A DNA stretch of 64,000 bases from assembly GCA_020137815.1 (NCBI GenBank), contig CM035359.1, positions 186,001-250,000 of the forward strand. Reading direction: 5' to 3'. The number at the start of each line of letters is the position of its first letter. Position 1 is the stretch's first letter. This document shows, one piece after another, positions 1-57,259 of the stretch. This DNA is from Hormiphora californensis. Its lineage: Eukaryota; Animalia; Ctenophora. The translations under genes were made by a program, and so were the position numbers. The notes under the pieces were generated by a model that saw only the letters and a list, made by a program, of their open reading frames with translations, ran no database searches and was not told the origin of the DNA.

Positions 1-2770
1 ATACCAGGGTAGGGTACCTATAGTAGGGAGGTACACTTTAGTTAGGGTAGAGACCATCTGGTACTATACCAGGGTAGGGTACCTGTAGTAGGGAGGTACA
101 CTTTAGTTAGGGTAGAGACCATCTGGTACTATACCAGGGTAGGGTACCTGTAGTAGTAGGGAGGTACACTTTAGTTAGGGTAGAGACCATCTGGTACTAT
201 ACCAGGGTAGGGTACCTGTAGTAGGGAGGTACACTTTAGTTAGGGTAGAGACCATCTGGTACTATACCAGGGTAGGGTACCTGTAGTAGGGAGGTACACT
301 TTAGTTAGGGTAGAGACCATCTGGTACTATACCAGGGTAGGGTACCTGTAGTAGGGAGGTACACTTTAGTTAGGGTAGAGACCATCTGGTACTATACCAG
401 GGTAGGGTACCTGTAGTAGGGAGGTACACTTTAGTTAGGGTAGAGACCATCTGGTACTATACCAGGGTAGGGTACCTGTAGTAGGGAGGTACACTTTAGT
501 TAGGGTAGAGACCATCTGGTACTATACCAGGGTAGGGTACCTGTAGTAGGGAGGTACACTTTAGTTAGGGTAGAGACCATCTGGTACTATACCAGGGTAG
601 GGTACCTGTAGTAGGGAGGTACACTTTAGTTAGGGTAGAGACCATCTGGTACTATACCAGGGTAGGGTACCTGTAGTAGGGAGGTACACTTTAGTTAGGG
701 TAGAGACCATCTGGTACTATACCAGGGTAGGGTACCTGTAGTAGGGAGGTACACTTTAGTTAGGGTAGAGACCATCTGGTACTATACCAGGGTAGGGTAC
801 CTATAGTAGGGAGGTACACTTTAGTTAGGGTAGAGACCATCTGGTACTATACCAGGGTAGGGTACCTGTAGTAGGGAGGTACACTTTAGTTAGGGTAGAG
901 ACCATCTGGTACTATACCAGGGTAGGGTACCTGTAGTAGTAGGGAGGTACACTTTAGTTAGGGTAGAGACCATCTGGTACTATACCAGGGTAGGGTACCT
1001 GTAGTAGGGAGGTACACTTTAGTTAGGGTAGAGACCATCTGGTACTATACCAGGGTAGGGTACCTGTAGTAGTAGGGAGGTACACTTTAGTTAGGGTAGA
1101 GACCATCTGGTACTATACCAGGGTAGGGTACCTGTAGTAGGGAGGTACACTTTAGTTAGGGTAGAGACCATCTGGTACTATACCAGGGTAGGGTACCTAT
1201 AGTAGGGAGGTACACTTTAGTTAGGGTAGAGACCATCTGGTACTATACCAGGGTAGGGTACCTGTAGTAGGGAGGTACACTTTAGTTAGGGTAGAGACCA
1301 TCTGGTACTATACCAGGGTAGGGTACCTGTAGTAGGGAGGTACACTTTAGTTAGGGTAGAGACCATCTGGTACTATACCAGGGTAGGGTACCTATAGTAG
1401 GGAGGTACACTTTAGTTAGGGTAGAGACCATCTGGTACTATACCAGGGTAGGGTACCTATAGTAGGGAGGTACACTTTAGTTAGGGTAGAGACCATCTGG
1501 TACTATACCAGGGTAGGGTACCTGTAGTAGGGAGGTACACTTTAGTTAGGGTAGAGACCATCTGGTACTATACCAGGGTAGGGTACCTATAGTAGGGAGG
1601 TACACTTTAGTTAGGGTAGAGACCATCTGGTACTATACCAGGGTAGGGTACCTATAGTAGGGAGGTACACTTTAGTTAGGGTAGAGACCATCTGGTACTA
1701 TACCAGGGTAGGGTACCTGTAGTAGGGAGGTACACTTTAGTTAGGGTAGAGACCATCTGGTACTATACCAGGGTAGGGTACCTGTAGTAGGGAGGTACAC
1801 TTTAGTTAGGGTAGAGACCATCTGGTACTATACCAGGGTAGGGTACCTGTAGTAGGGAGGTACACTTTAGTTAGGGTAGAGACCATCTGGTACTATACCA
1901 GGGTAGGGTACCTATAGTAGGGAGGTACACTTTAGTTAGGGTAGAGACCATCTGGTACTATACCAGGGTAGGGTACCTGTACGGAGGGAGGTACACTTTA
2001 GTAACGTTCGGGTAGAGACCATCTGGTACTATACCAGGATAGGGTACCTATAGTAGGGAGGTACACTTTAGTTAGGGTAGAGGCCATCTGGTACTATACC
2101 AGGGTAGGGTACCTGTAGTAGGGAGGTACACTTTAGTTAGGGTAGAGACCATCTGGTACTATACAAGGGTAGGGTACCTGTAGTAGGGAGGTACACTTTA
2201 GTTAGGGTAGAGACCATCTGGTACTATACCAGGGTAGGGTACCTATAGTAGGGAGGTACACTTTAGTTAGGATAGAGACCATCTGGTACTATACCAGGGT
2301 AGGGTACCTGTAGTAGGGAGGTACACTTTAGTTAGGGTAGAGACCATCTGGTACTATACCAGGGTAGGGTACCTATAGTAGGGAGGTACACTTTAGTTAG
2401 GGTAGAGACCATCTGGTACTATACCAGGGTAGGGTACCTATAGTAGGGAGGTACACTTTAGTTAGGGTAGAGACCATCTGGTACTATACCAGGGTAGGGT
2501 ACCTATAGTAGGGAGGTACACTTTAGTTTGGGTAGAGACCATCTGGTACTATACCAGGGTAGGGTACCTGTAGTAGGGAGGTACACTTTAGTTGGGGTAG
2601 AGACCATCTGGTACTATACCAGGGTAGGGTACCTATAGTAGGGAGGTACACTTTAGTTAGGGTAGAGACCATCTGGTACTATACCAGGGTAGGGTACCTA
2701 TAGTAGGGAGGTACACTTTAGTTAGGGTAGAGACCATCTGGTACTACCAGGGTATGGTACCTGTACGGAG
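1..2770. repeat. 65-bp minisatellite, ~42 copies in window, made of an innexin 3' splice site plus the first codons of the downstream exon
   Basis: Unit ataccagggtagggtacct(a/g)tagtagggaggtacactttagttagggtagagaccatctggtact. The minus strand reads ...ctccctactacAG|GTA CCC TAC CCT GGT ATA GTA CCA GAT GGT CTC TAC CCT AAC TAA (VPYPGIVPDGLYPN*). Confidence 0.95.
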
Positions 2771-2880
2771 GTTTAGTGATTGTATTACATCCGCGGATAT
2801 CCGGGCGGGGGCGGGGGGTGCTCGGGAAAAGGTATCTCGAGGAGGCTGCGGTAATTGGTAAATCGTGGTGCTATACTTAC

Positions 2881-3938
2881 ATTTTCATTGGGTATATCGA
2901 ACGCCTCCTTAATAACAAAGATACCTTGGACCCAGCAATATTCCTCCGCAAAAGAACTGGGAAAGATCTCAAAACCATGGCACTCAATTCTCTCTCCTGG
3001 GGGTTGGAGCTGTCAGTGTCAGATACTGTCAGATACTGTCAGATGGTGTAGATAACCATTTATATAACTAGTAACCAACTACATATTATGTAAATGAATA
3101 CCTAGCCTCTACGAATATAATTTAATATGACACACGTCAAATATATTTAGTGTTAAATGCTGCTTAACTTTATATCAATTTAATGCAACCCCCCCCCCCC
3201 CAATTTAATGAAGTATATTATGGGATTATCTGTTACTTAGGGGCGATTCAAAAAGGACGTCCAGGGGTAGGGGGAGGGGTATCACCTGCATATCAGTATC
3301 ACCTGCATAGTCGTTGACACTGACGATTATCCCCGCCACAAGACAAACAAGAAAAAGGAACACCCTGTTGACACGGGAAAATGCATCATCCAACTCTACC
3401 GCCTGAGAGACAAAAATGATAACTTCAGTCGGACCCCGATTTACCAGGTTGTATACCCCGATTTTCCGGGCAAAACCATTTCCTCCGAGCATCCCGGTAA
3501 ATCAGGGTCCGACTGTACTAAAACTAGTAAAAGTCACAGAAACTCTCCCGATCTCTGTCTGGCGCCGCGCCAGACCCCGATTTGATTCTCAATCGACACA
3601 TTGCGCTCAGATGGGGTCTGCATGGCGCCAGACAGCCCGATCTTGGAATGGAGTCATATCAGAATCACCTTGAAAATGTTGACACTTGATAATGGTATCT
3701 TTTTAATAATATCCATCTCTCAATCTTTATAGTGTTTCAGGATTGATTAGGAATTTGATTTTAAAATTAAATTTCACAGAAAAATTAGATATTTTTTTCC
3801 ACGTTATCAAACGACCAAAGCAACAAAAAACGACCGGTATATCAGATCGAATATATACACTCATACTGCACTATTGACATTAAGACACACCTTTGACCAA
3901 CAACATGACGGAATCTTGAGAACATCCCTGATCAACAT
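2881..3938 (-). CDS. inx: Innexin (gap-junction/hemichannel protein), 5' part; gene continues beyond the left window edge
   Basis: Exons 3938-3891 (MLIRDVLKIPSCCWSK), 3402-3303 (AVELDDAFSRVNRVFLFLVCLVAGIIVSVNDYA) and 2996-2881 (GERIECHGFEIFPSSFAEEYCWVQGIFVIKEAFDIPNEN), all with GT/AG borders and consistent phases. They show the DD..R.NR + TM1 + C-x-G...YCW EL1 signature of innexins. The start of the next exon (VPYPGIVPDGLYP) is seen only as the repeat unit at 1-2770. Confidence 0.88.
3426..3514. mobile_element. Short copy of the CAGTCGGACCCCGATTTA (Tc1/mariner-type) MITE family
   Basis: cagtcggaccccgattta...taaatcagggtccgactg followed by ta; same termini as the copies at 4869 and 38858. Confidence 0.7.
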
Positions 3939-4144
3939 ACACACATACATAACATACTTACACACAAACATTGTATGTCTAGAGGGATGAATAAGGATGA
4001 ATAGCTGTCCTTATTTAATATTTATACTTTATAGAAATTAAATAAAGAATTCCTTGGCATGTTCCCAGTATTTCCGCTCTCACACCGGGCCCGAATGGAC
4101 AGACTGTCATGTAGCATGGCAAAGAATTCCTATCTCCGTGAATT

Positions 4145-4218
4145 CTGTCTCTGTCTCTGTCTCTGTCTCTGTCTCTGTCTCTGTCTCTGTCTCTGTCTCT
4201 GTCTCTGTCTCTGTCTCT
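4145..4218. repeat. (TCTGTC)n microsatellite
   Basis: Direct inspection. Confidence 0.95.
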
Positions 4219-4547
4219 TTCTCAAACTCCCTGATGATATCCGTAACCCGAGCCGGGCAAAGATGTCCTCTTGACAACAAAAGTGGTCACCTTTCCAGCC
4301 AACTAATTTCTTTTAGTTTTTGGTATAATTTGGGAAAATTTTTGGTATGTCCTGATGTGAAATACGATGTAAGACATGTCTGGACGTAGCAGAACGTGTA
4401 AAGACCGTCAGGAGTCGCTAAAATACGAAAATTTCAATTTTGACGTCATTGTGACTCTCTGTCTCTGTCTATCGATAGACAGAGAAACAGAGAAACAGAG
4501 AGACAGAGACAGATCTATCTATCTCTCGCCCTCTCCCTGACCCCCTC

Positions 4548-4562
4548 CTCTCTCTTTCTCTC

Positions 4563-4620
<58 letters not shown>

Positions 4621-4656
4621 TCTCTTTCTCCCTCTCTCTTTCTCCCTCTCTCTCTC
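4548..4656. repeat. (TC)n microsatellite
   Basis: Direct inspection. Confidence 0.95.
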
Positions 4657-4868
4657 GCTATAGTCCACGTGCCTTCAACTGGGCCTAATAAAAGGTTGCA
4701 ATTTTTGGGATTTTGACAGCTAATAATAAGGGAATTGGGGATAGAGGGAGTTCGAGTTAATATTGAGTAAACACACTCATTCACATTGAGCTTGCTCAAT
4801 TTTTGTCGGGTTTTTGTCCTTGTGTGCTACTGAAATCTTTCAAATTCCTAGTTTGAAGTTTTACTATA

Positions 4869-5040
4869 CAGTCGGACCCCGATTTAACGGCACCCTCGGG
4901 GGAAAGGGTTTTGGTCGTTAAATCGGGGTGTCCGCTAAATCCGGGTCAAATACTGATAATTTTCTATATCGGGGGAAGATTATCCTGCCGTTAAATCGGG
5001 GTGCTGTTAAATCGGAGGCCGTTAAATCGGGGTCCGACTG
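4869..5040. mobile_element. Tc1/mariner-type MITE with TA target duplication
   Basis: ta|cagtcggaccccgatttaacgg ... ccgttaaatcggggtccgactg|ta, with internal AAATCGGGG subrepeats. Further or partial copies at ~18349, 21646-21802, ~22082, ~29095, ~35972 and 38858. Confidence 0.88.
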
Positions 5041-5157
5041 TACATACCATGTACAATGATTTTACAATTTAGGAATCTCAATCTCCTGTAGACGCTAGGA
5101 TGTAGGATAGAGTGACCCTATAATAATATCCTATATAGTTACCTGTAGACCAGCTGG

Positions 5158-6211
5158 ATGGCCGTGCTTAAAGAGGTCGTTGGGTCGATGGATGAAGAAG
5201 AAGAAGAGGGCCTCCCGCTCCTTGAAGAGGTGTCTGAGGAAGAGGAGGGAGATATTGGGGAGTCACGGAGGACGGCTAGAGAGCAGGATCATCTCGCTTC
5301 TCTAGTTGACAACATGGCTGGACCGTTACCTGGTGGGTAATTTTAGTTCTCAGGGGGCAATTCTAATTTAATTAAATGTAACTTAGAATTAAATTTTAAT
5401 TCTAAGTTAAATTTAATTTGAATTTAGTTTCGAAAGCTCTCTATTATATGCTTTAAATTTTTATTCAACCATGACTTCCAATTCTTTGAAATTTCCGATT
5501 CTCGGTGCCCAAATTGACAATTCTAAGAATTCTTCCTCTTCAACTGCTTGAATAAGATTCTTAGAAAGAGTTGTGCAGTGGCAGAGTTCTTCCCCTTCAA
5601 CTGTCAGTTGCCACTGCACAACGAGAGAAACAACAATCCGACACCGCTTGTCATACGCTGACTGTACATCGCGCGGCCTCACGTAGCCGCACCGGGCCGA
5701 AGGCCCGGTGCGAAGAGGAGGGTCTTACATGAGACAAGACACCGCGGGGTCTCAGATAACTATACTTGAAGTCCCGTGGCAGTTTCACTTCCTCGTCCGA
5801 CGCTTGCCATGTTCTATTGTTCTCACCTTCTTTTACAAGATTGTAAAAGATGATGAGAGAGGGTCAAGCAAGGCAATTCTAATTCCCTTTCAACTCACCC
5901 ACACATCTTCTCTCTAGGCCAAACAGGGCTTTTTCGCCGATCAGTTAAACTCCGCCGCCGAATGAACAAACTCCTCCTCCGATCCCGTGATTCAGTGATA
6001 CTCAGGAAGGAACAGGCCCAGAAACAAAACTCCCCATCTCAAAACTCATCTAGGTGGAATCCAAGGGTTGCCATGGTGATGTGGGGTCTACTGTTTGTTG
6101 TGTGGTTGGGAGGTTTGGCTATCGTGGTGCACAGGGTGGGTGAGTTAAGGAGTCGGAATTATACGGTGGAGGATTTGAGGGATTTGTGGGAAAATGGCCT
6201 TCCCGATCAGG
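5158..6211 (+). CDS. Unknown single-pass membrane protein (acidic N-terminus, basic linker, one TM helix); 3' end unresolved
   Basis: Exon 5158-5332 (MAVLKEVVGSMDEEEEEG...GPLP, donor G|GTGGGT) joins in phase 1 to exon 5918-6211 (ctctag|GC CAA...; ...RWNPRVAMVMWGLLFVVWLGGLAIVVHRVG...LPDQ, donor G|GTGAGG). Two ORF-track segments become one open frame. No family recognised. Confidence 0.55.
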
Positions 6212-6640
6212 GTGAGGTGCATTAGAGGTACATTAGAGGTACAGGGTGAGGTACATGGTGATGTACATTAGAGGTACATTAGAGGTACAAGGTGATGTAC
6301 ATTAGAGGTACATGGTGAGGTACATGGTGAGGTACATTAGAGGTACAGGGTGAGGTACATTAGAGGTACATTAGAGGTACAGGGTGAGGTACATTAGATA
6401 TACATGGTGAGGTACATTAGAGGTACAGGGTGAGGTACATTAGAGGTACATGGTGAGATACATTAGAGGTACATGGTGAGGTACATTAGAGGTACATGGT
6501 GAGGTACAGGGTGAGGTACATCAGAGGTACAGGGTGAGGTACAGGGTGATGTACAGGGTGAGGTGCATTAGAGGTACATTAGAGGTACAGGGTGAGGTAC
6601 ATTAGAGGTACATGGTGAGGTGCATTAGAGGTACATTAGA
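6207..6640. repeat. 11/12-bp minisatellite (cagggtgaggta / cattagaggta) starting at and reiterating a 5' splice site
   Basis: Begins at CAGG|GTGAGG (6208-6217); many copies of cagggtgaggt follow. Confidence 0.9.
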
Positions 6641-6675: not shown

Positions 6676-9600
6676 CAGGGTGTGAACTGCATGTCGTGTT
6701 TGCTAGTCGCGAGCGCGCTTGCGAGACAAGCAAACACGTCAAGGTTCATTAACAAGCATGCTGCTCAGTCATTTTAGATTTAATACACAATGTAAGGATA
6801 CCATGTAATAGGTGAGACTCTTGCCGTCACCCTCGTTCAAGTCCCGTGAAAAACGGAGCAGTACACGCAAACTGATGCCCATTTTCCTCGCGTGACCCCG
6901 ATTCAGCAGTTTGAGACACCAACTCTTTAGGGGGCCATATCTCAGGAACCAGACAAGATAGGAAAAATCGCCGTCTAACGAGGCGTACAGTTTTTAATCT
7001 AGTTTACCACTGTACCGGCCGTTTCACTCTCCGACCTAAAACAAAAATCGCAACCCCACAAAACTTCAAAATAATGAAATTCGCATGTCGCATGTCGTGT
7101 TGCATGTCGTGTCATGTTATTGACGCGCTCGCGTTCAACTCTCACACAGCAGCTGCAGAACATGGCGGGAAACATCGAGGAGTAGAGAGAGGGCCGGTGC
7201 CTAATCAAATATTTCTTGATCTTGATCTACTCCATCTCTCAGCTATCCTACCCCTCATCAACTCGATCTCTCAGCTACCCTTAGGCTACTCGATCTCTCA
7301 GCTACCCTTAGGCTACCCCTCATCTACTCCATCTTTCAGCTACCCTACCCCTCATCTACTCTATCTTTCAGCTACCCTACCCCTTATCTAGTCCATCTCT
7401 CAGCTACCCTACTCCTCATCTACTCCATCTCTCAGCTTCCCTATTAGGGAAGCATAGAGATGGAAACGATTAGGGGTAGGGAATCCCTATCCATAATCGT
7501 TTCCATCTCTATGCTTCCCTAGCCCTCATCAACTCCATCTTTCAGCTACCCTACCCCTCATCTACTCTATCTTTCAGCTACCCTACCCCTTATCTAGTCC
7601 ATCTCTCAGCTACCCTACTCCTCATCTACTCCATCTCTCAGCTTCCCTATTAGGGAAGCATAGAGATGGAAACGATTAGGGGTAGGGAATCCCTATCCAT
7701 AATCGTTTCCATCTCTATGCTTCCCTAGCCCTCATCAACTCCATCTTTCAGCTACCCTACCCCTAATCTAGTCCATCTCTCCGCTACCCTACTCCTCATC
7801 TACTCCATCTCTCAGCTACCCTACCTCCCATTTACTCCATCTCTCAGCTTACCTACCTCCCATTTACTCCATATCTCAGCTTCCCTACCTGCCATTTACT
7901 CCATCTCTCAGCTTCCCTACCTCCCATTTACTCCATCGCTTACCTTCCCTACCTCCCATTTACTCCATCTCTCAGCTTCCCTACCTCCCATTTACTCCAT
8001 CTCTTACCTTCCCTACCTCCCATTTACTCCATCTCTCAGCTTACCTACCTCCCATTTACTCTATCTCTCAGCTTCCCTACCTCCCATTTACTCCATCCCT
8101 CAGCTACCCTACCTCCCATTTGATCCATCTCTCAGCTTCCCTACCTCCCATTTACTCCATCTCTCAGCTTACCTACCTCCCATTTACTCCATATCTCAGC
8201 TTCCCTACCTGCCATTTACTCCATCTCTCAGATACCCTACCTCCCATTTACTCCATCTCTCAGCTTACCTACCTCCCATTTACTCCATATCTCAGCTTCC
8301 CTACCTGCCATTTACTCCATCTCTCAGATACCCTACCTCCCATTTACTCCATCTCTCAGCTTACCTACCTCCCATTTACTCCATCTCTCAGCTTACCTAC
8401 CTCCCATTTACTCCATCTCTCAGCTTCCCTACCTCCCATTTACTCCATCTCTCAGCTACCCTACCTCCCATTCACTCCATCTCTCAGCTACCCTACCTCC
8501 CATTTACTCCATCTCTCAGCTTCCCTACCTCCCATTTACTCCATCGCTTACCTTCCCTACCTCCCATTTACTCCATCTCTCAGCTTCCCTACCTCCCATT
8601 TACTCCATCCCTCAGCTTCCCTACCTGCCATTTACTCCATCTCTCAGCATGGGAGGTAGGGAAGCTGAGAGATGGAGTAAATGGGAGGTAGGGAAGCTGA
8701 GAGATGGAGTAAATGGGAGGTAGGTAAGCTGAGAGATGGAGTAAATGGGAGGTAAGGTAGCTGAGAGATGGAGTAAATGGGAGGTAGGGAAGCTGAGAGA
8801 TGGAGTAAATGGGAGGTAGGTAAGCTGAGAGATGGAGTAAATGGGAGGTAAGGTAGCTGAGAGATGGAGTAAATGGGAGGTAGGGAAGCTGAGAGATGAA
8901 GTAAATGGGAGGTAGGGTAGCTGAGAGATGGAGTAAATGGGAGGTAGGGAAGCTGAGAGATGGAGTAAATGGGAGGTAGGGAAGCTGAGGGATGGAGTAA
9001 ATGGGAGGTAGGGAAGCTGAGAGATGGAGTAAATGGGAGGTAGGGAAGCTGAGAGATGGAGTAAATGGGAGGTAGGGTAGTTGAGAGATGGAGTGAATGG
9101 GAGGTAGGGTAGCTGAGAGATGGAGTAAATGGGAGGCAAGGATGGAGTAAATGGGAGGTAGGGAAGCTGAGGGATGGAGTAAATGGGAGGTAGGGAAGCT
9201 GAGAGATGGAGTAAATGGGAGGTAGGGTAGCTGAGAGATGGAGTGAATGGGAGGTAGGGTAGCTGAGAGATGGAGTAAATGGGAGGTAGGGAAGCTGAGA
9301 GATGGAGTGAATGGGAGGTAGGGAAGCTGAGAGATGGAGTAAATGGGAGGTAGGTAAGCTGAGAGATGGAGTAAATGGGAGGTAGGGTATCTGAGAGATG
9401 GAGTAAATGGCAGGTAGGGAAGCTGAGATATGGAGTAAATGGGAGGTAGGTAAGCTGAGAGATGGAGTAAATGGGAGGTAGGGAAGCTGAGAGATGGAGT
9501 AAATGGGAGGTAGGGTAGCTGAGAGATGGAGTAGATGAGGAGTAGGGTAGCGGAGAGATGGACTAGATTAGGGGTAGGGTAGCTGAAAGATGGAGTTGAT

Positions 9601-10419
9601 GAGGGCTAGGGAAGCATAGAGATGGAAACGATTATGGATAGGGATTCCATACCCCTAATCGTTTCCATCTCTATGCTTCCCTAATAGGGAAGCTGAGAGA
9701 TGGAGTAGATGAGGAGTAGGGTAGCTGAGAGATGGACTAGATAAGGGGTAGGGTAGCTGAAAGATGGAGTAGATGAGGGGTAGGGTAGCTGAAAGATGGA
9801 GTAGATGAGGGGTAGGGTAGCTGAGAGATCGAGTTGATGAGGGGTAGGATAGCTGAGAGATGGAGTAGATCAAGATCAAGAAATATTTGATTCGGCACCG
9901 ACCCTCTCTCTACTCCTCGATGTTTCCCGCCATGTTCTGCAGCTGCTGTGTGAGAGTTGAACGCGAGCGCGTCAATAACATGACACGACATGCAACACGA
10001 CATGCGAGATGCGAATTTCATTATTTTGAAGTTTTGTGGGGTTGCGATTTTTGTTTTAGGTCGGAGAGTGAAACGGCCGGTACAGCGGTAAACTAGATTA
10101 AAAACTGTACGCCTCGTTAGACGGCGATTTTTCCTATCTTGTCTGGTTCCTGAGATATGGCCCCCTAAAGAGTTGGTGTCTCAAACTGCTGAATCGGGGT
10201 CACGCGAGGAAAATGGGCATCAGTTTGCGTGTACTGCTCCGTTTTTCACGGGACTTGAACGAGGGTGACGGCAAGAGTCTCACCTATTACATGGTATCCT
10301 TACATTGTGTATTAAATCTAAAATGACTGAGCAGCATGCTTGTTAATGAACCTTGACGTGTTTGCTTGTCTCGCAAGCGCGCTCGCGACTAGCAAACACG
10401 ACATGCAGTTCACACCCTG
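6676..10419. mobile_element. Foldback-type non-autonomous DNA transposon: ~3.7-kb near-perfect palindrome with internal 32-bp tandem arrays
   Basis: aaata|cagggtgtgaactgcatgtcg ... cgacatgcagttcacaccctg|aaata (5-bp direct repeat). The ~550-bp unique outer arms are near-identical in inverted orientation. The inner arms are arrays of tactccatctctcagcttccctacctcccatt, with the symmetry axis at ~8648. No transposase ORF. Confidence 0.9.
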
Positions 10420-10885: not shown

Positions 10886-13800
10886 TCAAACCATCGCCTC
10901 ATTATCCTTCTTCAAATGTGCCTTATTCTTTTCCTCGACCAAGTCTTTACTCAGTTTAATAACCAACTGTTCAAAGACCCTCGGGTTGACATTGTTCGCA
11001 ATTAAATGAAGATAAGTCCTTCCCGTGGTGCCGCAATTAAAATATATGTACTTCAACTTTGAATCCCCCTTGAGAAAGCACCGCTGCAGGAACCTTTGGT
11101 ATCCACCATCCACGAAGCAGTGTTCAGAGATGGTGAAGAAGAGGGAGAGAATGTTGGAGAGAATGGTTAGGACAAGGGCGAACCAGTAGATTAGGAAGAG
11201 GTATTGGTTCATAACATTGGGCGCTAGGACACACATTCCCTGTTCCTCTTCAAGACCTGCGAAAAGGGGGTGGAGAAAAAGGAGTTGTAGTTGAGTAAGA
11301 GGTAGAGAGACCTGTGAAAAAGGGGTGGAGAAAAAGGAGTTATAGTTGAGTAAGAGGTAGAGAGACAAGAAGAAAGGGTGGAGAAAAAGGAGTTATACTT
11401 AGTTGAGAGTAAGATGTAGAGAGACAGGAAGGGGTTAAATAATTATACTTTTCTTGGTAAACCATGCCAGTATCGTTCGAGATGGTGCAGGGACTATCAA
11501 TTTTATTATGACAAATACTTTGATTTACATGACCCTGGCCCTCGGCGTCACAGGACAAATTGCACTTCCTCACAGGACAAATTGCACTTAGAAAAAAATG
11601 TTTCACAAAATAGAAAGAAGAATATACACAATATATAGCTCACCCGAAGGTCCCCATCTCTTGATTTCGCACGCAACCATCTTCGGGAAAAGCCTGTCTT
11701 TTATAAACGCCGTCACGTTCGCTGACTGTATGGAAAAGGAATCAATGATTTGAAGGAAATTTGGTGTATGTTTAAAAGTGGTTAGATTTGCGATCAGTTT
11801 TTCTTTCTCAGAATTTTTAAGAAATTTCTTCGTAAGATCAAGCTGCAACTTCTGATCTATAAGCATATTTTTTTAACACCACAACTGCAACCCATATTTA
11901 GCTCCGATCTAAGTTTGTTTCTCCTCTCGAGAGGTGTCATCCCTCCAAATCATATTTCAGTTTCTAGATTTAGACTACGTAATGCATAAACTCCCCAAAT
12001 GCCCCATGGTGTCGAACTCCTATCATAATCATTGAACTCTCAACTTGAATACTTTTATGATAAGTTGCGAGTTCAGTACCCGGGCCCAAAAAGAGGGGGG
12101 TATACAATATACATACCTTGTCAAGAGAAGAGAACCACTCTGTACCGTAGGTTATAAAACTAGCTGATTCGAACATTGAATTCGTAGCGTACATAAGACC
12201 TACCGCCGCTGAGAGAGATGGGAGATTTGAGAAATTATATATATATATATATATGGCTGAGAGAGAGAGATGGGAGATTTGAGAAATTATATATATGGCC
12301 AAACAAGCCGCTGAGAGAGAGATGGGAGATTTGAGAAATTATATATAGAGATGGGAGATTTGAGAAATTATATATGGCCAAACAAGCCGCTGAGAGAGAT
12401 GGGATTATATACAGGGGTGGTGGTGCCTTGGTGGGGGCTAGTATATAGGGGGCGAAGACGCTGAGAGAGAGATGGGAGATTTGAGAAATTATATATAGAG
12501 ATGGGAGATTTGAGAAATTATATACAGGGGTGGTGGTGCCTTGGTGGGGGCTAGGGGGCGAAGACGCTGAGAGAGATTTGAGAGATTTGAGAAATTATAT
12601 GAGGCATAAACTCTGGCCACTGGCGCGTTATTTCAGATAACTTTCTCCCAGCGCGCCGCTGGGAGAAGTTAGCTGGAGTTTATCCGCCGCTGGCGGATAA
12701 ACTGGTTTAAATCACGACGACGATCCCGAGGCGGAGCCGAGGGAGAGGCGGAGGGGTTTAAACCTATAACGTGCCAGTGGTCAGAGTTTATGGGTTATAT
12801 ACCCTGCTTTAGTTGTTTATTTCAAGTATTACACACCAACAAGAGAGAGAACACTAATCAAAACACACAAAGAGAACTGAGAAATAGTTAAAAACACGTC
12901 ACAATTGAGTGTACATTGTTTGGTAACAGTTACTAAGCAGTTGCTAAGGAAAGAGAGTGAAAGAAATAGCCTGATAAGGGGCACATGTCACAAATAACAC
13001 AGAGAAAGAGATAGTGAGACAAAAGGGGAGATAAAGAGAGAGTAATTGACGGAATGTGTCCTTTCTTTCTCTCCAATGTAGTGTGTAAGTGTTGCACATA
13101 GTGTTCCCTCTGTATTTTAGTAAGAACTGATCATTTACACACACTTTGAATGTTACGTAGGAGTTAAAAATAAATAACCTGCCAGTGGGAAATAATCTGC
13201 CGCTGGACTGGCTGTTTACTGAGAGCGCGCTAGTGGGACTTCTCGCCACTGGCGCATTATTTAAGTTAGCAGGGTATATATATGGCCAAACAAGCCGCTG
13301 AGAGAGAGATGGGAGATTTGAGAAATTATATATATGGCTGAGAGAGATGGGAGATTTGAGGGAGATTTGAGAGAGATGGGAGATTTGAGAAATTATATTA
13401 TATGCAGCCAAACAAGCCACTGAGAGAGATGGGGGATTTGAGAAATTATATTATATGGCCAAACAATATTTAACAGATTTTCCAATGTTTTGTGGGATTG
13501 ATTTGTTTTTTCGGGATTGTTTTGCCACTAACCTCCGAGATACAGCAGTTTAACAGTAAATATAAGAAGGAACATCCGATGACTTTGGGTAACTTTTGCA
13601 TACGTACTTTTCTCCTGCGGATATTAACTACGGTTAATGGTTTTTGTGGCTAGACAAACTAACTTTCATACTTAGAAGATGTCAATTTTCTGTCAGGCCA
13701 ATGCTAGTCTGACAGGTTATTTTTCAGTAAACCGTCCACATCTGTTGGCGCCTATACCCAGGAATATTGATCCTACCTGAATGAAAATGGATAGTTTGAT

Positions 13801-16273
13801 GGCCAACCATCGTGATGCCTTCGCCACTTTATCCGCCATAACCTCTTCTGTTCCCACCTGTGTAAAATGGTAGAAACAATACATAAATCAAAGCTATGAC
13901 CTAATAATATAAGAACACATTTAATTTCACCAAATAAAACATTCTCAAAATCCCATAGGCTATATACCGGATTGTATAGTAGCTTGAGAACGGGTTTGAG
14001 TTCAAAAACTCCCAACTGCTTGTAAACGAGGTAGGGGGCGAAGAAGGCTACAGAGGATAACCAGAAGTAGAAGGGAACCCACTGGTACCATGTGTGGTAT
14101 ACTCTGAGAGGGGGAGGTAGGATGGTTAGGAAGGGGATTAGGGAACCCACTGGTACCAAGTGTGGTACACTCTGAGAGGGGGAGGTAGGATGGTTAGGAA
14201 GGGGATTAGGGAACCCACTGGTACCAAGTGTGGTACACTCTGAGAGGGGGAGGTAGGATGGTTAGGAAGGGGATTAGGGAACCCACTGGTACCAAGTGTG
14301 GTACACTCTGAGAGGGGGAGGTAGGATGGTTAGGAAGGGGATTAGGGAACCCACTGGTACCAAGTGTGGTACACTCGATGAGAGGGGATGGTTTAAGGGA
14401 TTCACTGGGAGACTCTGGGAGAGGGAGGAGGGGTGGGAGAAGATTGTTAGAATGAAAGGGGTGGGGATGGGAGCAGGGGGTGGGGATGGGAGCAGGGGTA
14501 CCTATTGCCACTGTTACGATGTGTGCCGCATTGTGTAGTAGCTACGCTGAAAGGGGGGGGGGGAAGTTTGTAGAGGAATTAGTTAGTAGGCGGATAGATT
14601 ATTTTCGTTCAGACAGTGCGCTCAGATGGGGTCGGTGCCCCCAGACAGATAGTTGGCTGTTGCGTACTGGATACTAACAATATATATGAGAGATTTGATG
14701 CAGGTGTATGTGATAATAATATTATCACGTACACCTCCATATTATTGGAGTGCTTGATGTATGTGATAATATTACATCTGATTTTAGTGATTTTGACAGT
14801 TTGATCATCTGACATTTTAACTGACAGGAGACCTAAGTTGCCTGGCTAGACTGTGTATCGGGCGGGAGGGTTAGAACATAACAAGGCCTAAGTTGATCTG
14901 TCTGGCGCCGCGACCCCATCTGAGCGCACTGTCAGGAGAATCAAATGGGGTACGGCGCCGCCATACAGAAGTTGATGGGGTGTAAGCATCTGATTTTATT
15001 TGGGTCGCAGCTTGCACTACGAGATGTCACTACGAGATGTCACATCTAGTTTTATCAAAATTAAATAATGCATAAATAATGCAAAGGAAGTTTAGAATAT
15101 TGATATGCTATACTTCAACTTGTCAGAGCAACTATACTGTTATGGCATATTCGATATATTGTGGTTTCATCTTAAACAATAAACGTGTGAACAGTATTGA
15201 GTATGAAAAATATGAACAGTGTGAGCAATATGAATACAAAATCAATATGAACACTCAGAACAATATGTACATTATGAACGATACCTAGTTGGTGGTAGAT
15301 ACATATCCCCCGGTGGACATTTCAACCTTCCCCCTCCTTTTAACTTCCGCTCCAAGCAAGGGGGTGCATCCTCCGGAATCAGACCTGCGAGGGTTGTCAG
15401 ACACTGACTGTACATCGCGCAACCTCGATGCACAGTCAGACCCCAAACACACAGCTACCCCAAACACACAGCTACGCGAGGCTGCTACGCGGCCTCACGT
15501 AGCCGCACCGGGCCTTCGGCCCGGTGCGGAGAGGACGGTCTTATATGAGACAATGCGAGGGGAACATGTTTTGATTTGCCTTGTTCGACCCTCCCTCAAA
15601 CAAGTTTTGATAACAATGTTAGCGAGGGAACATGTTTTGTTAGCCAACAGCTCTCACATGCGCTAATGTCTGTACTCTCCAAGTGAAACCCCTTGGTGAC
15701 ATATAGACACCTGGCGCGACCCCCGCACCAGGTGTCTATATATGTCACCAAGACAATCACCAAGACAATCACCTTCTTTAGCACAGCAATTCGCAGCTAG
15801 TGAAAGCAGGTTTTTCCGTGCAAATATCTTATTGGGGGAGCTGCATCGCGCTGACAGTAGTCAGTACATACCCGGATATGGAAGACTCCCATCTTTGATC
15901 TCATAGGCCTCCATTATCGTGTAAAGACCTTGGGTCCAACAGTAATCATCCACAAAGGAGGATGAAAACTTGGTGAGACCATCACAAGCAATAATGTTTC
16001 CAGAGTACTGCTTTAGTGTCACTGTAGGGAGGAGAATCAGTCGTAACCATGACAACACCAGTTATACTGAATGTTACCCAGGAGAACATGTTATCGTATG
16101 GTTACCATGGTTACCATAGCAACCAGCAGTCTTGTGTGTGACTTACCCACAGTCCCGAGAGTGAGGCACAGCAGAAACATGTAACAGCGGTTAAGTTGAT
16201 CCCACTTATCATCCAAAACAATCGATTTGAACGGTGTTACGCCTTTAAACTTTGATAACAAGTCAACTATCAT
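10886..16273 (-). CDS. inx: Innexin, complete, 9 coding exons
   Basis: Exons 16273-16147, 16021-15872, 15384-15285, 14103-13968, 13857-13777, 13614-13533, 12208-12117, 11725-11644 and 11256-10886, all GT/AG and in phase. Product: MIVDLLSKFKGVTPFKSIVLDDKWDQLNRCYMFLLCLTLGTVVTLKQYSGNIIACDG...DDYCWTQGLYT...PYPGLIPEDAPPCLER...RVYHTWYQWVPFYFWL...LFPKMVACEIKRWGPSGLEEEQGMCVLAPNVMNQYLFLIYWF. The hallmarks YQWVP, FPKMVAC and CVLAPN, four TMs and extracellular Cys pairs are present. Confidence 0.96.
11254..11430. repeat. ~56-bp tandem repeat (3 copies) overlapping the last innexin acceptor
   Basis: agacctgcgaaaaggggtggagaaaaaggagttgtagttgagtaagaggtagag repeated; copy 2 retains cacAG|GTCT. Confidence 0.85.
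12205..13466. repeat. Degenerate minisatellite (gctgagagagatgggagatttgagaaattatata...) reiterating an innexin acceptor, interrupted by an inserted element at ~12601-13275
   Basis: The unit contains minus-strand tctctcAG|CGGC, matching the real acceptor at 12209-12210. The array resumes after 13275. Confidence 0.85.
12601..13275. mobile_element. Unclassified insertion with internal inverted repeats
   Basis: Interrupts the minisatellite. cataaactctggccactggcgcgttat (12605-12631) is inverted at ataacgtgccagtggtcagagtttatg (12766-12792). It contains palindromes ttctcccagcgcgccgctgggagaa and ccgaggcggagccgagg, and a distal copy of gccactggcgc.ttattt.ag at ~13246. Confidence 0.55.
14072..14376. 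repeat. 68-bp tandem repeat (~4.5 copies) = innexin acceptor + first 11 codons (RVYHTWYQWVP) + TAA
   Basis: Units start at 14072, 14140, 14208, 14276 and 14344. The real exon begins at 14103. Confidence 0.95.
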
Positions 16274-20678: not shown

Positions 20679-23600
20679 TCAACTCTGTAGGAGTTTATTT
20701 GTTCTGGCCTCGGCGTCTTGGACTCGACCAACGTTTAGTGTTGTCTGCAGGGGGGAATTCAGTTTGAGTTTATAGTACAAAAATACCATTAATAAGAGGG
20801 GTATACATGGGTTCATTCACTTCCATTCACAATGCCAATTTAGGCAGCGGATTACGAATCCCCGGACCCCGATTTTTGATTAAACTCCCAGGAAAAAATT
20901 GCACAGAGCGATTTTTGAGGAGGGGGGGGGGGAACCTGGGCAATTCATTTCTGAGAGTTCAATCGGGGATCCGTAACCCCCTGTGGTATTAGTCTTGACA
21001 AGTTGACCAGTTTATTAAACACTTCAACTTGTAAAGTGTTTATTCGGTCATGTCTGGGTGGGGTGCTATTATATTATATATAATATATAGGAAAGTGTTT
21101 AGTAAGGTAATGATGTATTTCTGGAGACATTATGTAACTCAAAACTAGAAAGAAATAGCTTAGCCGCAATCGTGAATTAAAGGTCACAATATATTAATAT
21201 TGTTAATGTTTCTGATCGAATGACACAGTTTATGAATGATGAATCATGGGTTCCTATTGCTCGTTAGGTGTGGTTAAGGTTGCGTTTAGGTTTGGAGGTT
21301 TGGAGGTTGGTGGAGGTTTGGTGGAGGTTTGCTGGTTTGGAGGTTGGTTTTGCGGGGTTTGTCTCGGTTTTTTGGGTTTGGTCTGGCAGCATGATTCATG
21401 TTCTCAACTTACTCATTATACTACACCCCAAAACATTAGAGAGAATGTTTTACAGATTTGGACGAAACTAGCATACCTTCTCATTAATTCTGTCCAGTTT
21501 CGTGTTTTGTCTATCAAGTTCATCTCCCATGTCCAGCGCCATCATTCTCAGATCACCAACCACATCCGCCACAACTCTGTAATGACATGACTCTGTAATG
21601 ACTCTGTAATGACATGCAATTGCAGTGACTACTGAATAGTAAATACAGTCGGACCCCGATATACCGTAACTCCGTAACTCCGTAACTCCGTAACTCCGAA
21701 GATAAACTTCCCCCGTTACAGGAGATTCTGACAGTATTTGATCTCAATTGACAAAAAGTAAATCCTTTCCCTCGAGCATCTCGGTAAATCGGGGTCCTAC
21801 TGTATATTTAGGCAATTAAATTATATTAATTAAATGGCCATTGTTACCTTGCCGAATGCCGACCCCCCGTTAAAAAATTGCTTGATTAACTTACTATTAG
21901 TAGTCAACTGCTTGATAAATTCAAACTAAAATTCAACTCACGCTAAGTTTTCATCCATTTCGTCTTCCCGTGCATCGTTAGTAACACGTTGAATGTACCC
22001 AGTCTGAGCCACCTCTCCCTTATGATAACCTGCAGAGAATTAACATGACTTGGATACTAAACCCTCCATTATAGTTATACACAGTCAAACCCCGATTTAA
22101 CGGTCCCGATTTAACGGGTCCCTGGGGGGGGGGGGTCCGACTATAAGCTCCTGATACGAAGGAGTCTATAGAATGTCCATGAGAGAAGTCATGGTTCACA
22201 GCAGGGCGATCATAAACCCTGCCAATACTTTTAGAAAACGCAGCTTAGTGTGTCGGGGACAGATTGGAAAAGTTGCTTACTTTTAGAAAACGCAGCTTAG
22301 TGTGTCGGGGACGCTTGGGGCTAGTCACGACTAGTCAAAGTCACGACTAGTAATATATCATGTCTCCGATAATATAAGGCCAAGGGCATGTTATTGTCAA
22401 TGACAATGTCATGCATTCATTGAGTAATGACATTCTATGACAATAGCATTATAACAGCTAATCGCTCGAGCGACTAACTCACCATGTGGCTGAGATGTCA
22501 CAGTCCCACCAGCAGGGTTTACCCCATCTGCAGCCTTCCAACTTGCATCGTGGGTCTTTCCCTTGTTTTTTGGAGCACACGGGCAGCAGCTGTATAAAAG
22601 TGAAATGTATTAGTAGATTTATATCACATGCCTATACTTGTAAACAAGTATCTAGTTGCAGCCGGGAAAGGGCTTTCTCAAGACAAATATGACGCCCAGA
22701 CGGGGTATGATTGTTATGTATCATAATCAGGGAAGGAGTGAATTCCACAGGTTGCAATGGTGCATGCAGTGACTCACAGTGAGGCTATCTGGCACCGCGG
22801 TTTCAGACATCCTCACTGCATGCAACCGCCCCGTGCAACCGCCCCGTCTCGCCAGACAGAATGGGCTGGTGGGGGGGGGGGGGGGGTGGCCGTGGTACAG
22901 CTGCATAGGAAGATAGTAGCAATTGATTGTATTGGCTTACCCACAGAAGCGTTCCATATTCGCCAAGTGTTTCTCAGCTTTCGATAGGTCATCATTAATA
23001 TTATCCAACTTTGTCTCAATGTTATCCAATTGCTCTGAAAAAGGTGGCTTGTTTGATGAAAGACTCAGGCAAATTTGCAAGGAATTTCATGGCCAACATG
23101 CAGCAGGAGAGTTTACCGCGTTTGCGCGCGCCATCCCAGAAATAACATTGGTGTACTTTAACTTTAAGAAATTCTCCGCGCGCTCCGTTTTAATATCTCT
23201 CTGACGATCGGACTGGTCAAGATGGTTGAATCGCTTCATGTCAGTGGATATGAATGTTTCAATAAAGATGTAACGTGAAACATGCTCTATGGCTGTGTGT
23301 GTGAGATGGGATTGCGTAACATTGTTACTCATTGTAAAGTGAAGGGAGAAAGGAACATGACGAGGAAATAAGAGTGATAGACAAAAGTCGCACAGTGTCA
23401 CACAGCAATTGGTAATAAATGATAGATAATTATGATGAGAAAGGATTGAAAGATTTCCTAGTTTGTCCTACCTCCTTGTCTGTTCAGCTCCCCTGCAGTA
23501 TCAGCTCCAATTTGTCGAGTCTGAAACGGAATTATTATATTTAATTATTTAATTTAGTGACAGGTGTTCTTATACAATAAAACCCCGTCTACTCATTTTG

Positions 23601-26600
23601 TCCAGCTGGAAGGAGAAAACTAAACTTTCTCACTATTAATTTACTTTTCCTGAGTTTAGAAAGGTCTTAGTTACCATCCATTTACCACTCAGTTACCATT
23701 CAGTTACCATTCAGTTACAATTCCGTTAGGGGAAACTCTAACTGAATGGCATCCCATTAATGGGATCCCATCAACAGTAAAACTCTAACTGATAATGGAC
23801 CACAGTGATGGTTCTTTCTCTGTATTCTCTCTGTGTGCGCGCCCGTGCCCGGGCATGCCCAATGTACTGATTGATTGATTGATTGACTGTCTACAGAGAG
23901 AATACAGAGAAAGAACCATCACTGTGGTCCATTATCAGTTAGAGGTTTACTGTTGATGGGATCCCATTAATGGGATGCCATTCAGTTAGAGTTTCCCCTT
24001 ACCACTCAGTTACCACTCTGTTACCAACCAGTTACCACTCAGTTACCATTCCGTTACCAACCAGTTACCATTCAATTACCACTCAGTTACCAACCAATTA
24101 CCACTCTGTTACCACTCAGTTACCAACCATTTACCAACCAGTTACCACTCAGTTACCACTCAGTTACCACTCAGTTACCACTCAGTTACCAACCAGTTAC
24201 CACTCAGTTACCACTCAGTTACCATTCCGTTACCACTCAGTTATTACTCAGTTACCAACCAGTTATCACTGAACTACTCGGATACCACTTAGCCACACTG
24301 CTACATAATGACCCTGCATGCTATGTACCACGACACTGGTATACAATTCTACCCCTGACTCCATCTGCTACCAATACAATTCACACCAACCCTCTAAACA
24401 CACACACGCCTAGTCGAGTTCATGTACACAGTAGGAGGGGGAGGAAGGGAGTGTTAGACAGGGGATAGGAGGGGAGCGTGTTACACAGTAGGAGGGGGAG
24501 GAAGGGAGTGTTAGACAGGGGATAGGAGGGGAGCGTGTTACACAGCAGCTGTTATAGGGGGGGTGTTTTGAACCAGCTGATTTATCAATACAGATATGTG
24601 CTAGGTATATCTCCTCCTGACCTCTTAGTTGATCGACCAAGGAGAAAATAACATCATATTTTTCCTGTCTCTCCCTATCCTCTTTTTTCACCTCTTTTTC
24701 ACCTCCGAGCCTATAACAGTGGCTTTGCAAGGAGTTAACCTTCGTTTCTGTATCCCATACCATGAGAAACAGAAAGGTTAACTCCTTGCAAAACTAAACG
24801 GATGCAGAGAAGTGCCGGAAAAAAAACATTTGACAACGGTCATGACCCATGACTCATTGTGACGTGACGTGGCAAAGGCCATGAGACCATGTTTAAAGGT
24901 ATTGTTTAGTCTATGGATTTGGTATTTATGATCATAATAATGTCGGCAAACTTGCCATACTGTTTACTGTAATCTGTCGTGATACGTCGTGTCAGTTTGT
25001 TGTAACAAATTGTACTACAGTTAATCTCTCAGGAAACTTTAATTCCATATGATGCTGGCGTTGTTCTTCATTCTCCTTAGCTACCATGCCGTCCTTGCAG
25101 GTCCGTATAGTAGGTAGTAGTGAAACAAATAATTTCTTTTTTGGTATAGTACCGGGTACCCTATTTCCATATCAAAGTTCCAGGCTATCAGCATATTATG
25201 TAAAGTCCCTTGATTAAAAAATTCGACTTTATATGACGTACACACTAATTTCTGCAGATGGAAACTTGATAAGCTCCAGGCTGTCAGTTAGTCAGAGTTC
25301 GACTGGTTGGAATGGCTATGCTAGTAGGGCTGTAGATGGGAACAGCAATGGAAACTTCTGGGCTCAGTAAGTATGAAGTGACTTGATCCAGGTCAGACCC
25401 CATTTTGACACTGTTCTCAGATCGGTATAGGGTGTATTTTCCATATTACACCTAGCTACCTACTATCACGTCAGTTGATCGAGAATTAGAATTGAATAGA
25501 ATATATTTTATATAATGCTAATCATAATTTTCAGTAGAGTCGTTGAGCAATTAGTTAATTGAGAGTTGAATAATATTCTTAATTTCTATACAGATCATGC
25601 ACCCATTCTGCCGGTACTTCTAATAACTGGTGGAAGGTTAATCTGGCCAGGGTCTCGAAAATAAACCAAGTGTTCATTCATGGAAGAACTGACTGCTGCC
25701 AAAACAGATTGGACAATGCACTGGTAAGTAATTTTAATTATTTCTAAACCATCTAATAATAATGAATATAGTACAATATTTAACTAAATCCTCTCTCAAT
25801 TAACTCCGCTAAAAATCAATTAACACTATAACTTAGGTTTACGCGGGAGATGAATTTTGTGGAGCTATTAAATACCAGTATGAGGGACAATCGTTTTTCA
25901 GCGTTGACTGCAATGGAGCATATGCCGGTTAGTAGTAGTAGTAGGTACTATAATATCAGGCAACAGCCCGTCCGAAACGTGCCCCCTCACCACATCAATT
26001 ATCTCATATTATACGATGAAAAATACATAACACTTCCCCTCCAATTCTTAGATTCAATCAGGGTAGTACAGAACTACAACTACCTAACGATTTGTGAAGT
26101 AAACGTATTTGGAGACGATACCTTTGCCCTAGCTCCCCTGGATAACCTCGTCTCTGGGAAATATCTTCCTACGGCCCAGACCAGTGAAGGGTGGAGCGGT
26201 GCCGCTCCTAGAGCTATTGATGGAAGGACCAATGGACTGTGGGACCAGTCTACATGTACCCATTCAGGAAATACAGGCAGGAACCACTGGCAGGTTGACC
26301 TCCTAAGCAGACATTTTGTAAAGAAGGTTGTTGTCTACAACAGACGGGACTGCTGTCAAGATAGAATCAATGGGGCTCAGGTAACTTCGGTTTTATTTTA
26401 GGTCGGTTAGATCGTCATTATCATTATATATGTACAATTTCCATGAGATTATGTAGTATGTACTCAAAAATATCGAATCTAAATCATTTCCAGGTCTTTG
26501 TTGACGACAGATTTTGTGGGGCAATAACGTACGCCAGTGGTCAGGACGTTTACGTTGTAGATTGTGATACTTATGGGAGAGTCGTTAAAGTCGCACAGAA

Positions 26601-32527: not shown

Positions 32528-57259
<24,732 letters not shown>

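What the first reader, a model, noticed from the sequence alone, without database searches (positions are those of the whole stretch)
1..2770. ~42 back-to-back 65-nt units that each look like a complete mini-intron (AG|GT ratchet array) in an innexin gene
Seen: the minus-strand unit is GTACCC...CCCTAACTAAAGTGTACCTCCCTACTA(C/T)AG. It starts with GT, has a CTAAC branch-like motif ~25 nt from the end, then a pyrimidine-rich tract and YAG, so every unit boundary is AG|GT. Read as exon it gives VPYPGIVPDGLYPN*, so use of any decoy acceptor without further splicing truncates the channel in extracellular loop 1. Established: AG|GT sites underlie recursive splicing and the tandem-duplication model of intron gain. 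Inference: the array may be removed stepwise via zero-length exons, or may tune innexin output through nonsense-mediated decay.
Basis: partly seen in the sequence, partly recalled or inferred. Interest (0 to 1): 0.8.

Follow-up and report, generated by a model that had tools for sequence, protein, structure and literature searches.

The report
Comb-jelly innexin splice-acceptor "mirage" repeat
In a comb-jelly gap-junction (innexin) gene, a splice-acceptor signal and the start of the next exon are copied head to tail at least 42 times, likely a tolerated repeat of a kind already known from lancelets that splicing would skip in one step rather than ratchet through.

Summary
The array is real: 42 full units (37 of 65 nt) at 18-2760, running off the window; every boundary is YAG|GT and 39 of 42 units carry CTAAC. 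But a unit is not a mini-intron. Its first 33 nt are the head of the next innexin exon (7 of 11 residues match the Bolinopsis relative); the rest is an acceptor-like tail. This is an amplified intron/exon boundary, a 'mirage' as described in amphioxus. Sequence argues against a ratchet: the donor regenerated after splicing (AAT|GTACCC) lacks both -1G and +5G, unlike all 29 modelled donors here, and scores like a random intronic GT; 65 nt is shorter than all 28 modelled introns (minimum 95). AG|GT is ordinary: 12 of 28 other acceptors have it. Seven of those 28 are also duplicated, only two with GT, three of them in a neighbouring innexin with an intact 406-codon frame. No RNA of this gene was found and the real exon lies outside the window, so skipping, expression and NMD are untested. 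The scan has noted mirages before, in this genome and in other animals.

The parts
18..2760 (-). 42 full tandem units (mostly 65 nt): about 33 nt of exon-4 head plus about 32 nt of acceptor-like tail (CTAAC, C-rich tract, YAG); a 43rd partial unit at 1-17 runs off the window
   Evidence: head matches P0008 residues 91-101 at 7 of 11
2698..2760 (-). Unit 1, 63 nt, diverged edge copy (2-nt deletion, GTACCA start)
1977..2047 (-). Unit 12, 71 nt; shares its last 10 nt with the unique intron end, probably an older unit variant (inferred)
2761..2880 (-). Unique 120-nt part of intron 3: donor GTAAGT at 2880, first YAG at 2763-2761
2881..2996 (-). Innexin gene A exon 3 (116 nt), first extracellular loop with both cysteines, ends in AAT
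   Evidence: 66% identity to P0008 over 38 aa; Pfam PF00876 E 0.0034 as a fragment, below the gathering score
3303..3402 (-). Gene A exon 2 (100 nt); its donor is itself duplicated once, 17 nt apart
3669..3716 (-). Predicted gene A exon 1 (ATG at 3716), found by eye; exons 1-3 give 88 codons without a stop
   Evidence: tblastn with P0008 did not detect it
10886..16273 (-). Comparison gene: innexin gene B, 9 exons, 406 aa; acceptors of introns 3, 6 and 8 are duplicated (AG|AG, AG|CG or AG|CC, AG|GT)
   Evidence: (295 of 406 identical to Mnemiopsis P0001, no gaps)
49947..51672 (-). Comparison array: 22 boundaries of a 78-nt CTAAC...CAG|GT unit in an ankyrin-repeat, probably TRP-like gene; the last copy continues into the exon at 49996-49875

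Best explanation
The array is a minisatellite of 42 or more copies of a splice-acceptor signal plus the first ~33 nt of the next innexin exon, likely formed by tandem duplication of the intron 3/exon 4 boundary and likely removed in one step as part of an enlarged intron 3, from donor 2880 to the last copy's acceptor. Shown: unit anatomy, acceptor-like tails, the exon-derived head, a weak regenerated donor, and the same architecture at 7 other acceptors in the window. Inferred: (1) a first duplication spanning the junction, then expansion and homogenisation by slippage or unequal exchange, leaving diverged copies at the edge (unit 1, first tail) and inside (unit 12); (2) the authentic exon is the last copy, left of the window; (3) it is preferred because only it is followed by full exon sequence and a real donor at normal exon distance (exon definition), while upstream copies have no good donor; (4) occasional use of the nearest decoys would give stop-containing mRNAs lost to decay, which is noise rather than regulation.
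For: Head of unit matches P0008 91-101 directly after the residues matched by exon 3 (53-90), in frame, so the GT is the first two bases of a Val codon. 12 of 28 other modelled acceptors are followed by GT, three by GTA. 7 of 28 have upstream near-copies, followed by AG, CG, GT, CA, GT, TG, GG. Gene B aligns without a gap to its Mnemiopsis relative when the last copy is used at introns 3, 6 and 8; 9 of its 11 decoys would give a premature stop and 2 an in-frame insertion. Regenerated donor below all 29 modelled donors; 0 of 29 (0 of 11 in the two innexins alone) lack both -1G and +5G. Amphioxus mirages have the same anatomy and normal mRNA (PMC3087553, passages; PMC3902484, passage).
Against: No RNA from this gene was seen, so one-step skipping is not shown. 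The authentic exon and the rest of the gene are outside the window and no genome is held. Decoy acceptors score as well as real ones and come first in transcription, so the preference for the last copy is assumed from gene B and from the literature. The donor and acceptor matrices rest on only 29 and 28 sites; 18 of each come from a gene model made by eye and checked mainly by open frame. In the unspliced RNA the boundaries CAG|GTACCC and TAG|GTACCC score 1.5-1.6 bits and the first boundary 2.5 bits, close to the weakest modelled donors (2.2-2.4), so some internal splicing is not excluded.
Confidence: 0.72

Rival explanations
1. The expansion has damaged the gene: upstream copies capture splicing, or the distal exon is missing, so this is a null or weak allele, or a young pseudogene.
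For: Any array acceptor gives a stop near codon 100-117; decoys score like real acceptors; no listed run held the gene, which is no evidence either way.
Against: Exons 1-3 are open for 88 codons with canonical sites and both loop cysteines; gene B keeps an intact frame with three such arrays.
Confidence: 0.1
2. The array is a copy-number-dependent dial: more decoys divert more transcripts into stop-containing forms that NMD destroys, and this is selected or regulated.
For: 42 of 42 full units lead to a stop; the dominant 65-nt unit has CTAAC where the 71-nt unit does not.
Against: A stop is the default outcome of reading into intron sequence. The 78-nt array in the same window is in frame with no stop in 20 of 21 units, so stops are not a shared design. 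About 12 distinct changes among units (read) leave about an even chance that none hits the four AG|GT bases (hand calculation), so their invariance shows no selection; 3 of 42 units lost CTAAC.
Confidence: 0.08
3. Stepwise removal: the array is ratcheted out through zero-length exons, or collapsed from within by nested splicing between a unit's GT and a later unit's AG, each step regenerating AG|GT.
For: All 43 boundaries are YAG|GT with branch-like and pyrimidine signals. In unspliced RNA the boundary has -1G and scores 1.5-2.5 bits; an internal GT at unit position 14 scores 3.9 bits and could delimit a 13-nt cryptic exon. A second AG|GT array exists at 49947-51672.
Against: After a first step the donor context is exon 3's AAT, scoring 0 to -1 bits with 4 of 11 positions matching the U1-pairing consensus, against 9 of 11 for donor 2880 (consensus recalled). 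Fly ratchet points need a donor near the optimal consensus, lie in long introns and are conserved (PMC8605326, PMC6110457, passages). 65 nt is below the shortest of 28 modelled introns (95 nt). 5 of 7 other duplicated acceptors lack GT, so this genome handles such arrays without recursion.
Confidence: 0.06
4. The copy number is partly an assembly artefact at a contig or window edge and the true array is much shorter.
For: The array touches coordinate 1; the ankyrin/TRP-like exon at 35403-35250 is out of frame relative to the near-identical P0030, which may reflect indel errors in this assembly.
Against: Units carry distinct, patterned variants (T/C at -3, three 68-nt units, single substitutions), which duplication of one read would not give.
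Confidence: 0.04

Closest known systems
Amphioxus 'mirage' minisatellites (Adh3, globins BflGb6/BflGb9, troponin C, PGBD5); PMC3087553 passages, PMC3902484 passage
   Same: Head-to-tail copies of an intron 3' end plus the next exon's 5' part (as in BflGb6); unit within the reported 10-160 bp; homogenised interior with diverged boundary copies; many copies keep AG/GT signals.
   Different: Ctenophore rather than cephalochordate; 42+ copies against 3-6 in BflGb6; normal mRNA and length polymorphism are reported there but untested here.
Human F7 intron 7 37-bp VNTR with silent 5' pseudo-sites; PMC1557585, abstract and outline only
   Same: A minisatellite spanning an exon/intron boundary creates functional-looking duplicate splice sites that normally stay silent.
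   Different: Donor side, where the first copy is authentic; here acceptor side, where the last copy would be authentic.
Drosophila ratchet points / recursive splicing (Ubx, kuz, Bx); PMC8605326 and PMC6110457, passages
   Same: Juxtaposed acceptor and GT; strong acceptor motif.
   Different: There the regenerated donor is near consensus, sites are conserved, single and spaced within very long introns; here the donor is poor, the GT is the start of a coding exon, and sites recur every 65 nt.
Tandem-duplication (Rogers) model of intron gain, as cited in PMC3087553
   Same: Duplication across an AG/GT leaves repeat copies inside an intron.
   Different: No new intron position is needed: an existing intron with a strong donor would simply lengthen.

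Membership tests
Mirage minisatellite | Tandem repeat whose unit spans an exon-intron boundary | tested here: met
   Head matches P0008 91-101 in frame after exon 3; tail scores as an acceptor and resembles the unique intron end
Mirage minisatellite | Minisatellite-sized unit, homogenised interior, diverged edge copies | tested here: met
   65 nt, 97% matches; unit 1 and the first tail diverged; only the upstream edge is visible
Mirage minisatellite | Authentic exon intact at the end of the array | not testable with these tools
   Array runs off the window; no genome held. Met for the comparison arrays in gene B and at 49947-51672
Mirage minisatellite | Mature mRNA spliced normally | tested here: inconclusive
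   No RNA holder listed; run X1 did not cover gene A exons and is under 90% alike to gene B
Mirage minisatellite | Copy number varies between alleles | not testable with these tools
   No DNA run listed
Recursive-splicing ratchet point | Juxtaposed acceptor and GT | tested here: met
   43 of 43 boundaries; but also 12 of 28 ordinary acceptors
Recursive-splicing ratchet point | Regenerated donor near consensus and usable | tested here: not met
   By sequence only: 0 to -1 bits, no -1G or +5G, below all 29 modelled donors
Recursive-splicing ratchet point | Cryptic RS-exon (~50 nt) closed by a downstream donor | tested here: inconclusive
   Best internal GT at unit position 14 (3.9 bits) would give only a 13-nt exon
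Recursive-splicing ratchet point | Located in a very long intron | tested here: inconclusive
   At least 2.86 kb; far end not visible
Recursive-splicing ratchet point | Conservation across species; intermediates, lariats or sawtooth coverage | not testable with these tools
   No orthologous DNA or nascent RNA available
Intron gain by tandem duplication | A new intron position bounded by the duplicated GT and AG | tested here: inconclusive
   Unit 1 is frameshifted and follows an existing 120-nt intron segment with a 9-bit donor; a new intron would need a zero-length exon
Innexin (PF00876) | Homology to innexins with the first-loop cysteines | tested here: met
   Exon 3 best hit P0008, E 2.1e-12, 68%, named innexin inx2-like of Bolinopsis microptera, PF00876 E 4.8e-42
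Innexin (PF00876) | Four transmembrane helices and full reading frame | not testable with these tools
   Only the first ~100 codons lie in the window

The most novel reading that the evidence does not exclude
AG|GT mirages in comb jellies are self-collapsing: a unit's weak -1G donor splices to the acceptor of a unit two or more copies downstream, regenerating the same boundary, so the array shrinks in 65-nt multiples before exon 3 joins; this would be recursive or nested splicing on a minisatellite, would rescue transcripts caught by decoys, and would explain why AG|GT arrays are the largest acceptor arrays in this window (42+ and 22 boundaries against at most 8).
Probability: 0.07. Interest if true: 0.7.

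Novelty: new member of a known kind. Interest (0 to 1): 0.22.

Why it matters
As it stands this is a large but ordinary example of a described repeat type, in a lineage where my paper searches found no printed report of it. Its value is as a natural test of acceptor choice: 42 or more near-identical, well-scoring acceptors precede the one that must be used, in an early-branching animal. If decoy use or stepwise removal were shown, it would tie minisatellite length to gene output and extend recursive splicing to short tandem units.

Tried and rejected
RNA: one run search listed no RNA holder, only X1 by species label with 0.00 of words. Laid on 2630-4100 it gave a single 43-nt piece in intron 2. 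Laid on gene B its contigs were mostly under 90% alike (10 of 11 records), so a relative or paralogs; no evidence on expression or splicing. No genome held. Word-based homologue search with exon 3 found nothing; the HMMER search did. Metagenome scan with P0008 gave 3 loci at 34-38% identity; none matched gene A at DNA level. Idea that the whole unit is exon-derived, with the tail encoding the residues before the YQW motif: best of 16 shuffle tests 10 of 300, against P0008 14 of 300 and 94 of 300, not significant after multiple tests; P0008 and two related proteins in the PMC8769644 supplement keep a ~20-residue loop there; rejected as unsupported. RNA structure: a 6-bp hairpin covers each boundary but three units fold no better than shuffles (z 0.26), and the real acceptor would share it. 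Rfam: no match in 1800-6000. Gene A's own protein was not found by motif in the supplements of PMC9949713 (1 file) or PMC8769644 (8 files, then file 4); line breaks and alignment gaps can hide matches. An early guess of an exon at 14545-14503 in gene B was wrong. Searches for recursive splicing on tandem repeats (passages of PMC13196383) and for duplicated-acceptor competition returned no direct precedent in the listings; the library lacks most subscription papers.

Full report
Observation. The array is as described. TRF gives 1-2765, period 65, 42.3 copies, 97% matches. Splitting the minus strand at the boundary gives 43 boundaries, 42 full units (37x65, 3x68, 1x63, 1x71 nt) and a stub at the window edge. 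All units begin with GT and end in TACAG (27) or TATAG (15); 39 of 42 keep CTAAC, starting at -28. Between donor 2880 (GTAAGT) and the first boundary lie 120 unique bases.

Setting. The window is from a comb jelly. Gene B (16273-10886, minus) gives a 406-aa innexin from 9 exons with 295 of 406 identities and no gaps to a Mnemiopsis leidyi protein. 'TRP-like' is my reading of motifs; the calls show only ankyrin similarity. Gene A, the subject, has exons at 3716-3669 (by eye), 3402-3303 and 2996-2881, open for 88 codons. Exon 3's best hit among 1.84 billion representatives is P0008 (E 2.1e-12, 68%), Bolinopsis microptera innexin inx2-like. Two adjacent same-strand innexins fit the INXB-D cluster of PMC9949713 (passages), but I did not assign family names.

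What a unit is. P0008 residues 53-90 match exon 3 and residues 91-101 match the first 33 nt of the unit (7 of 11), in frame. The unit's GT is therefore the start of a valine codon at the head of exon 4. The remaining ~32 nt look like an intron end: they score 9.3-11.6 bits (TACAG types) or 5.5 bits (TATAG type) on a matrix from 28 modelled acceptors whose leave-one-out range is 2.0-14.8, and the 71-nt unit shares its last 10 nt with the unique intron end. I tested whether the tail might also be exon-derived; the signal was marginal (14 of 300 shuffles against P0008, best of 16 tests 10 of 300) and I dropped it. So the unit is exon head plus acceptor tail, and the array is the intron 3/exon 4 junction copied head to tail. 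The exon that completes the frame should follow the last copy, outside the window; no genome is held.

Is AG|GT special? No. I modelled 28 other introns (2 in gene A, 8 in gene B, 18 in the ankyrin/TRP-like gene). The last set was drawn by eye: a single stop-free chain runs through 13 exons from 52964 to 35723, the three upstream exons have ambiguous edges, and the chain breaks at 35403. Twelve of 28 acceptors are followed by GT. Seven of 28 have upstream near-copies of the junction (16-mer, at most 2 mismatches), followed by AG, CG, GT, CA, GT, TG and GG; one of 28 donors has 25 downstream copies. So amplification hits acceptors with and without GT, 2 of 7 against 12 of 28 overall. In gene B three acceptors are duplicated; using the last copy each time gives the gap-free alignment, while 9 of 11 decoys would give a premature stop and 2 an in-frame insertion.

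Could it ratchet? In recursive splicing the donor is judged after the first step, with the upstream exon's end in front of it. Here that is AAT|GTACCA or AAT|GTACCC. None of 29 modelled donors lacks both -1G and +5G (16 have both, 7 only -1G, 6 only +5G); these lack both, score 0.0 and -1.0 bits against a leave-one-out minimum of 2.2, and are matched or beaten by 42% and 60% of 582 intronic GT sites. The same holds for the 11 donors of the two innexins alone. Fly ratchet points have donors near the optimal consensus, weakening them leads to inclusion of the cryptic exon, and they sit in long introns and are conserved (PMC8605326, PMC6110457; passages). A 65-nt intron is also shorter than all 28 modelled introns (minimum 95). 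What remains open is nested splicing in the unspliced RNA, where boundaries keep -1G and score 1.5-2.5 bits, near the weakest modelled donors, and two units would make a 130-nt intron. The matrices are small, so these scores are indicative.

Selection? About 12 distinct changes occur among the units (read); by hand calculation there is about an even chance that none hits the four AG|GT bases, and three units have lost CTAAC. Stops after decoy use are the default: the 78-nt array is in frame without a stop in 20 of 21 units. Nothing points to a design for NMD.

RNA. No holder was listed. The one run offered covered no gene A exon and is mostly under 90% alike to gene B. Expression and splicing are untested.

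Known kind. PMC3087553 (passages) describes minisatellite-like duplications of the 3' end of an intron plus the 5' part of the next exon in amphioxus globin BflGb6, names them mirages after Adh3, gives units of 10-160 bp, notes that many carry AG/GT signals, that RT-PCR suggests normal splicing, that edge copies escape homogenisation, and links them to the Rogers model of intron gain. PMC3902484 (passage) reports the same for PGBD5 and troponin C. The human F7 VNTR is a donor-side analogue (PMC1557585, abstract). My search listed PMC3087553; the word 'mirage' reached me through earlier scan notes and I then checked it in the paper. Those notes report the same pattern in other windows of this genome and in worms, urchins and a placozoan; they are unchecked and not independent evidence. 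My searches (passages of PMC8527503) found no printed report for ctenophores, but most subscription papers are not in the library.

Verdict. Real feature, innexin gene, new member of a known kind. Most likely a tolerated acceptor mirage removed in one step (0.72). Rivals: damaged allele (0.10), regulated NMD dial (0.08), stepwise removal (0.06), inflated assembly (0.04). Interest 0.22.

Noticed in passing
window 49947-51672 (-): Second large AG|GT acceptor array: 22 boundaries, 78-nt in-frame unit with CTAAC; one internal unit keeps the tail of the first boundary, as unit 12 does in gene A.
   Followed up: partly
window 54018-54877 (-): 33-nt unit x26 carrying the donor CA|GTAAGT of a predicted 20-nt micro-exon; its acceptor is also duplicated at 55002-55121.
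   Followed up: partly
window 14072-14387, 12211-13340, 11253-11431 (-): Three duplicated acceptors in intact innexin gene B; two decoys in intron 6 (12310, 12256) would add 34 or 16 residues in frame.
   Followed up: yes
window 36781-36917 and 35392-35553 (-): Further acceptor duplications (x2, x4) in the ankyrin/TRP-like gene.
   Followed up: partly
window 35403-35250 (-): Exon is out of frame part-way relative to near-identical P0030; assembly indel or broken allele.
   Followed up: no
window 6676-10419: 3.7-kb foldback structure between the two innexins: 606-nt arms 99% complementary around inverted 32-nt arrays meeting at 8648/8649; foldback-transposon-like or an assembly inversion.
   Followed up: no
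window 6225-6636 (+): 23-nt GAG|GTACAT-rich array x18 at the end of a 122-codon open frame with a hydrophobic stretch; possible donor-side repeat of an unidentified plus-strand gene.
   Followed up: no
window 39958-47059 (+): Four tandem genes for small Lys/Arg/Ala-rich proteins with signal-peptide-like starts, nested antisense in a 9.8-kb intron of the ankyrin/TRP-like gene.
   Followed up: no
window 21471-21743 (-) and 25832-26640 (+): A stretch resembling a SNAP-25 C-terminal SNARE motif (recalled; no Pfam hit) and an F5/8 type C lectin-like domain (PF22633 E 3.9e-12).
   Followed up: no
window 3270-3320 (-): Gene A exon 2 donor is duplicated once, 17 nt apart.
   Followed up: partly
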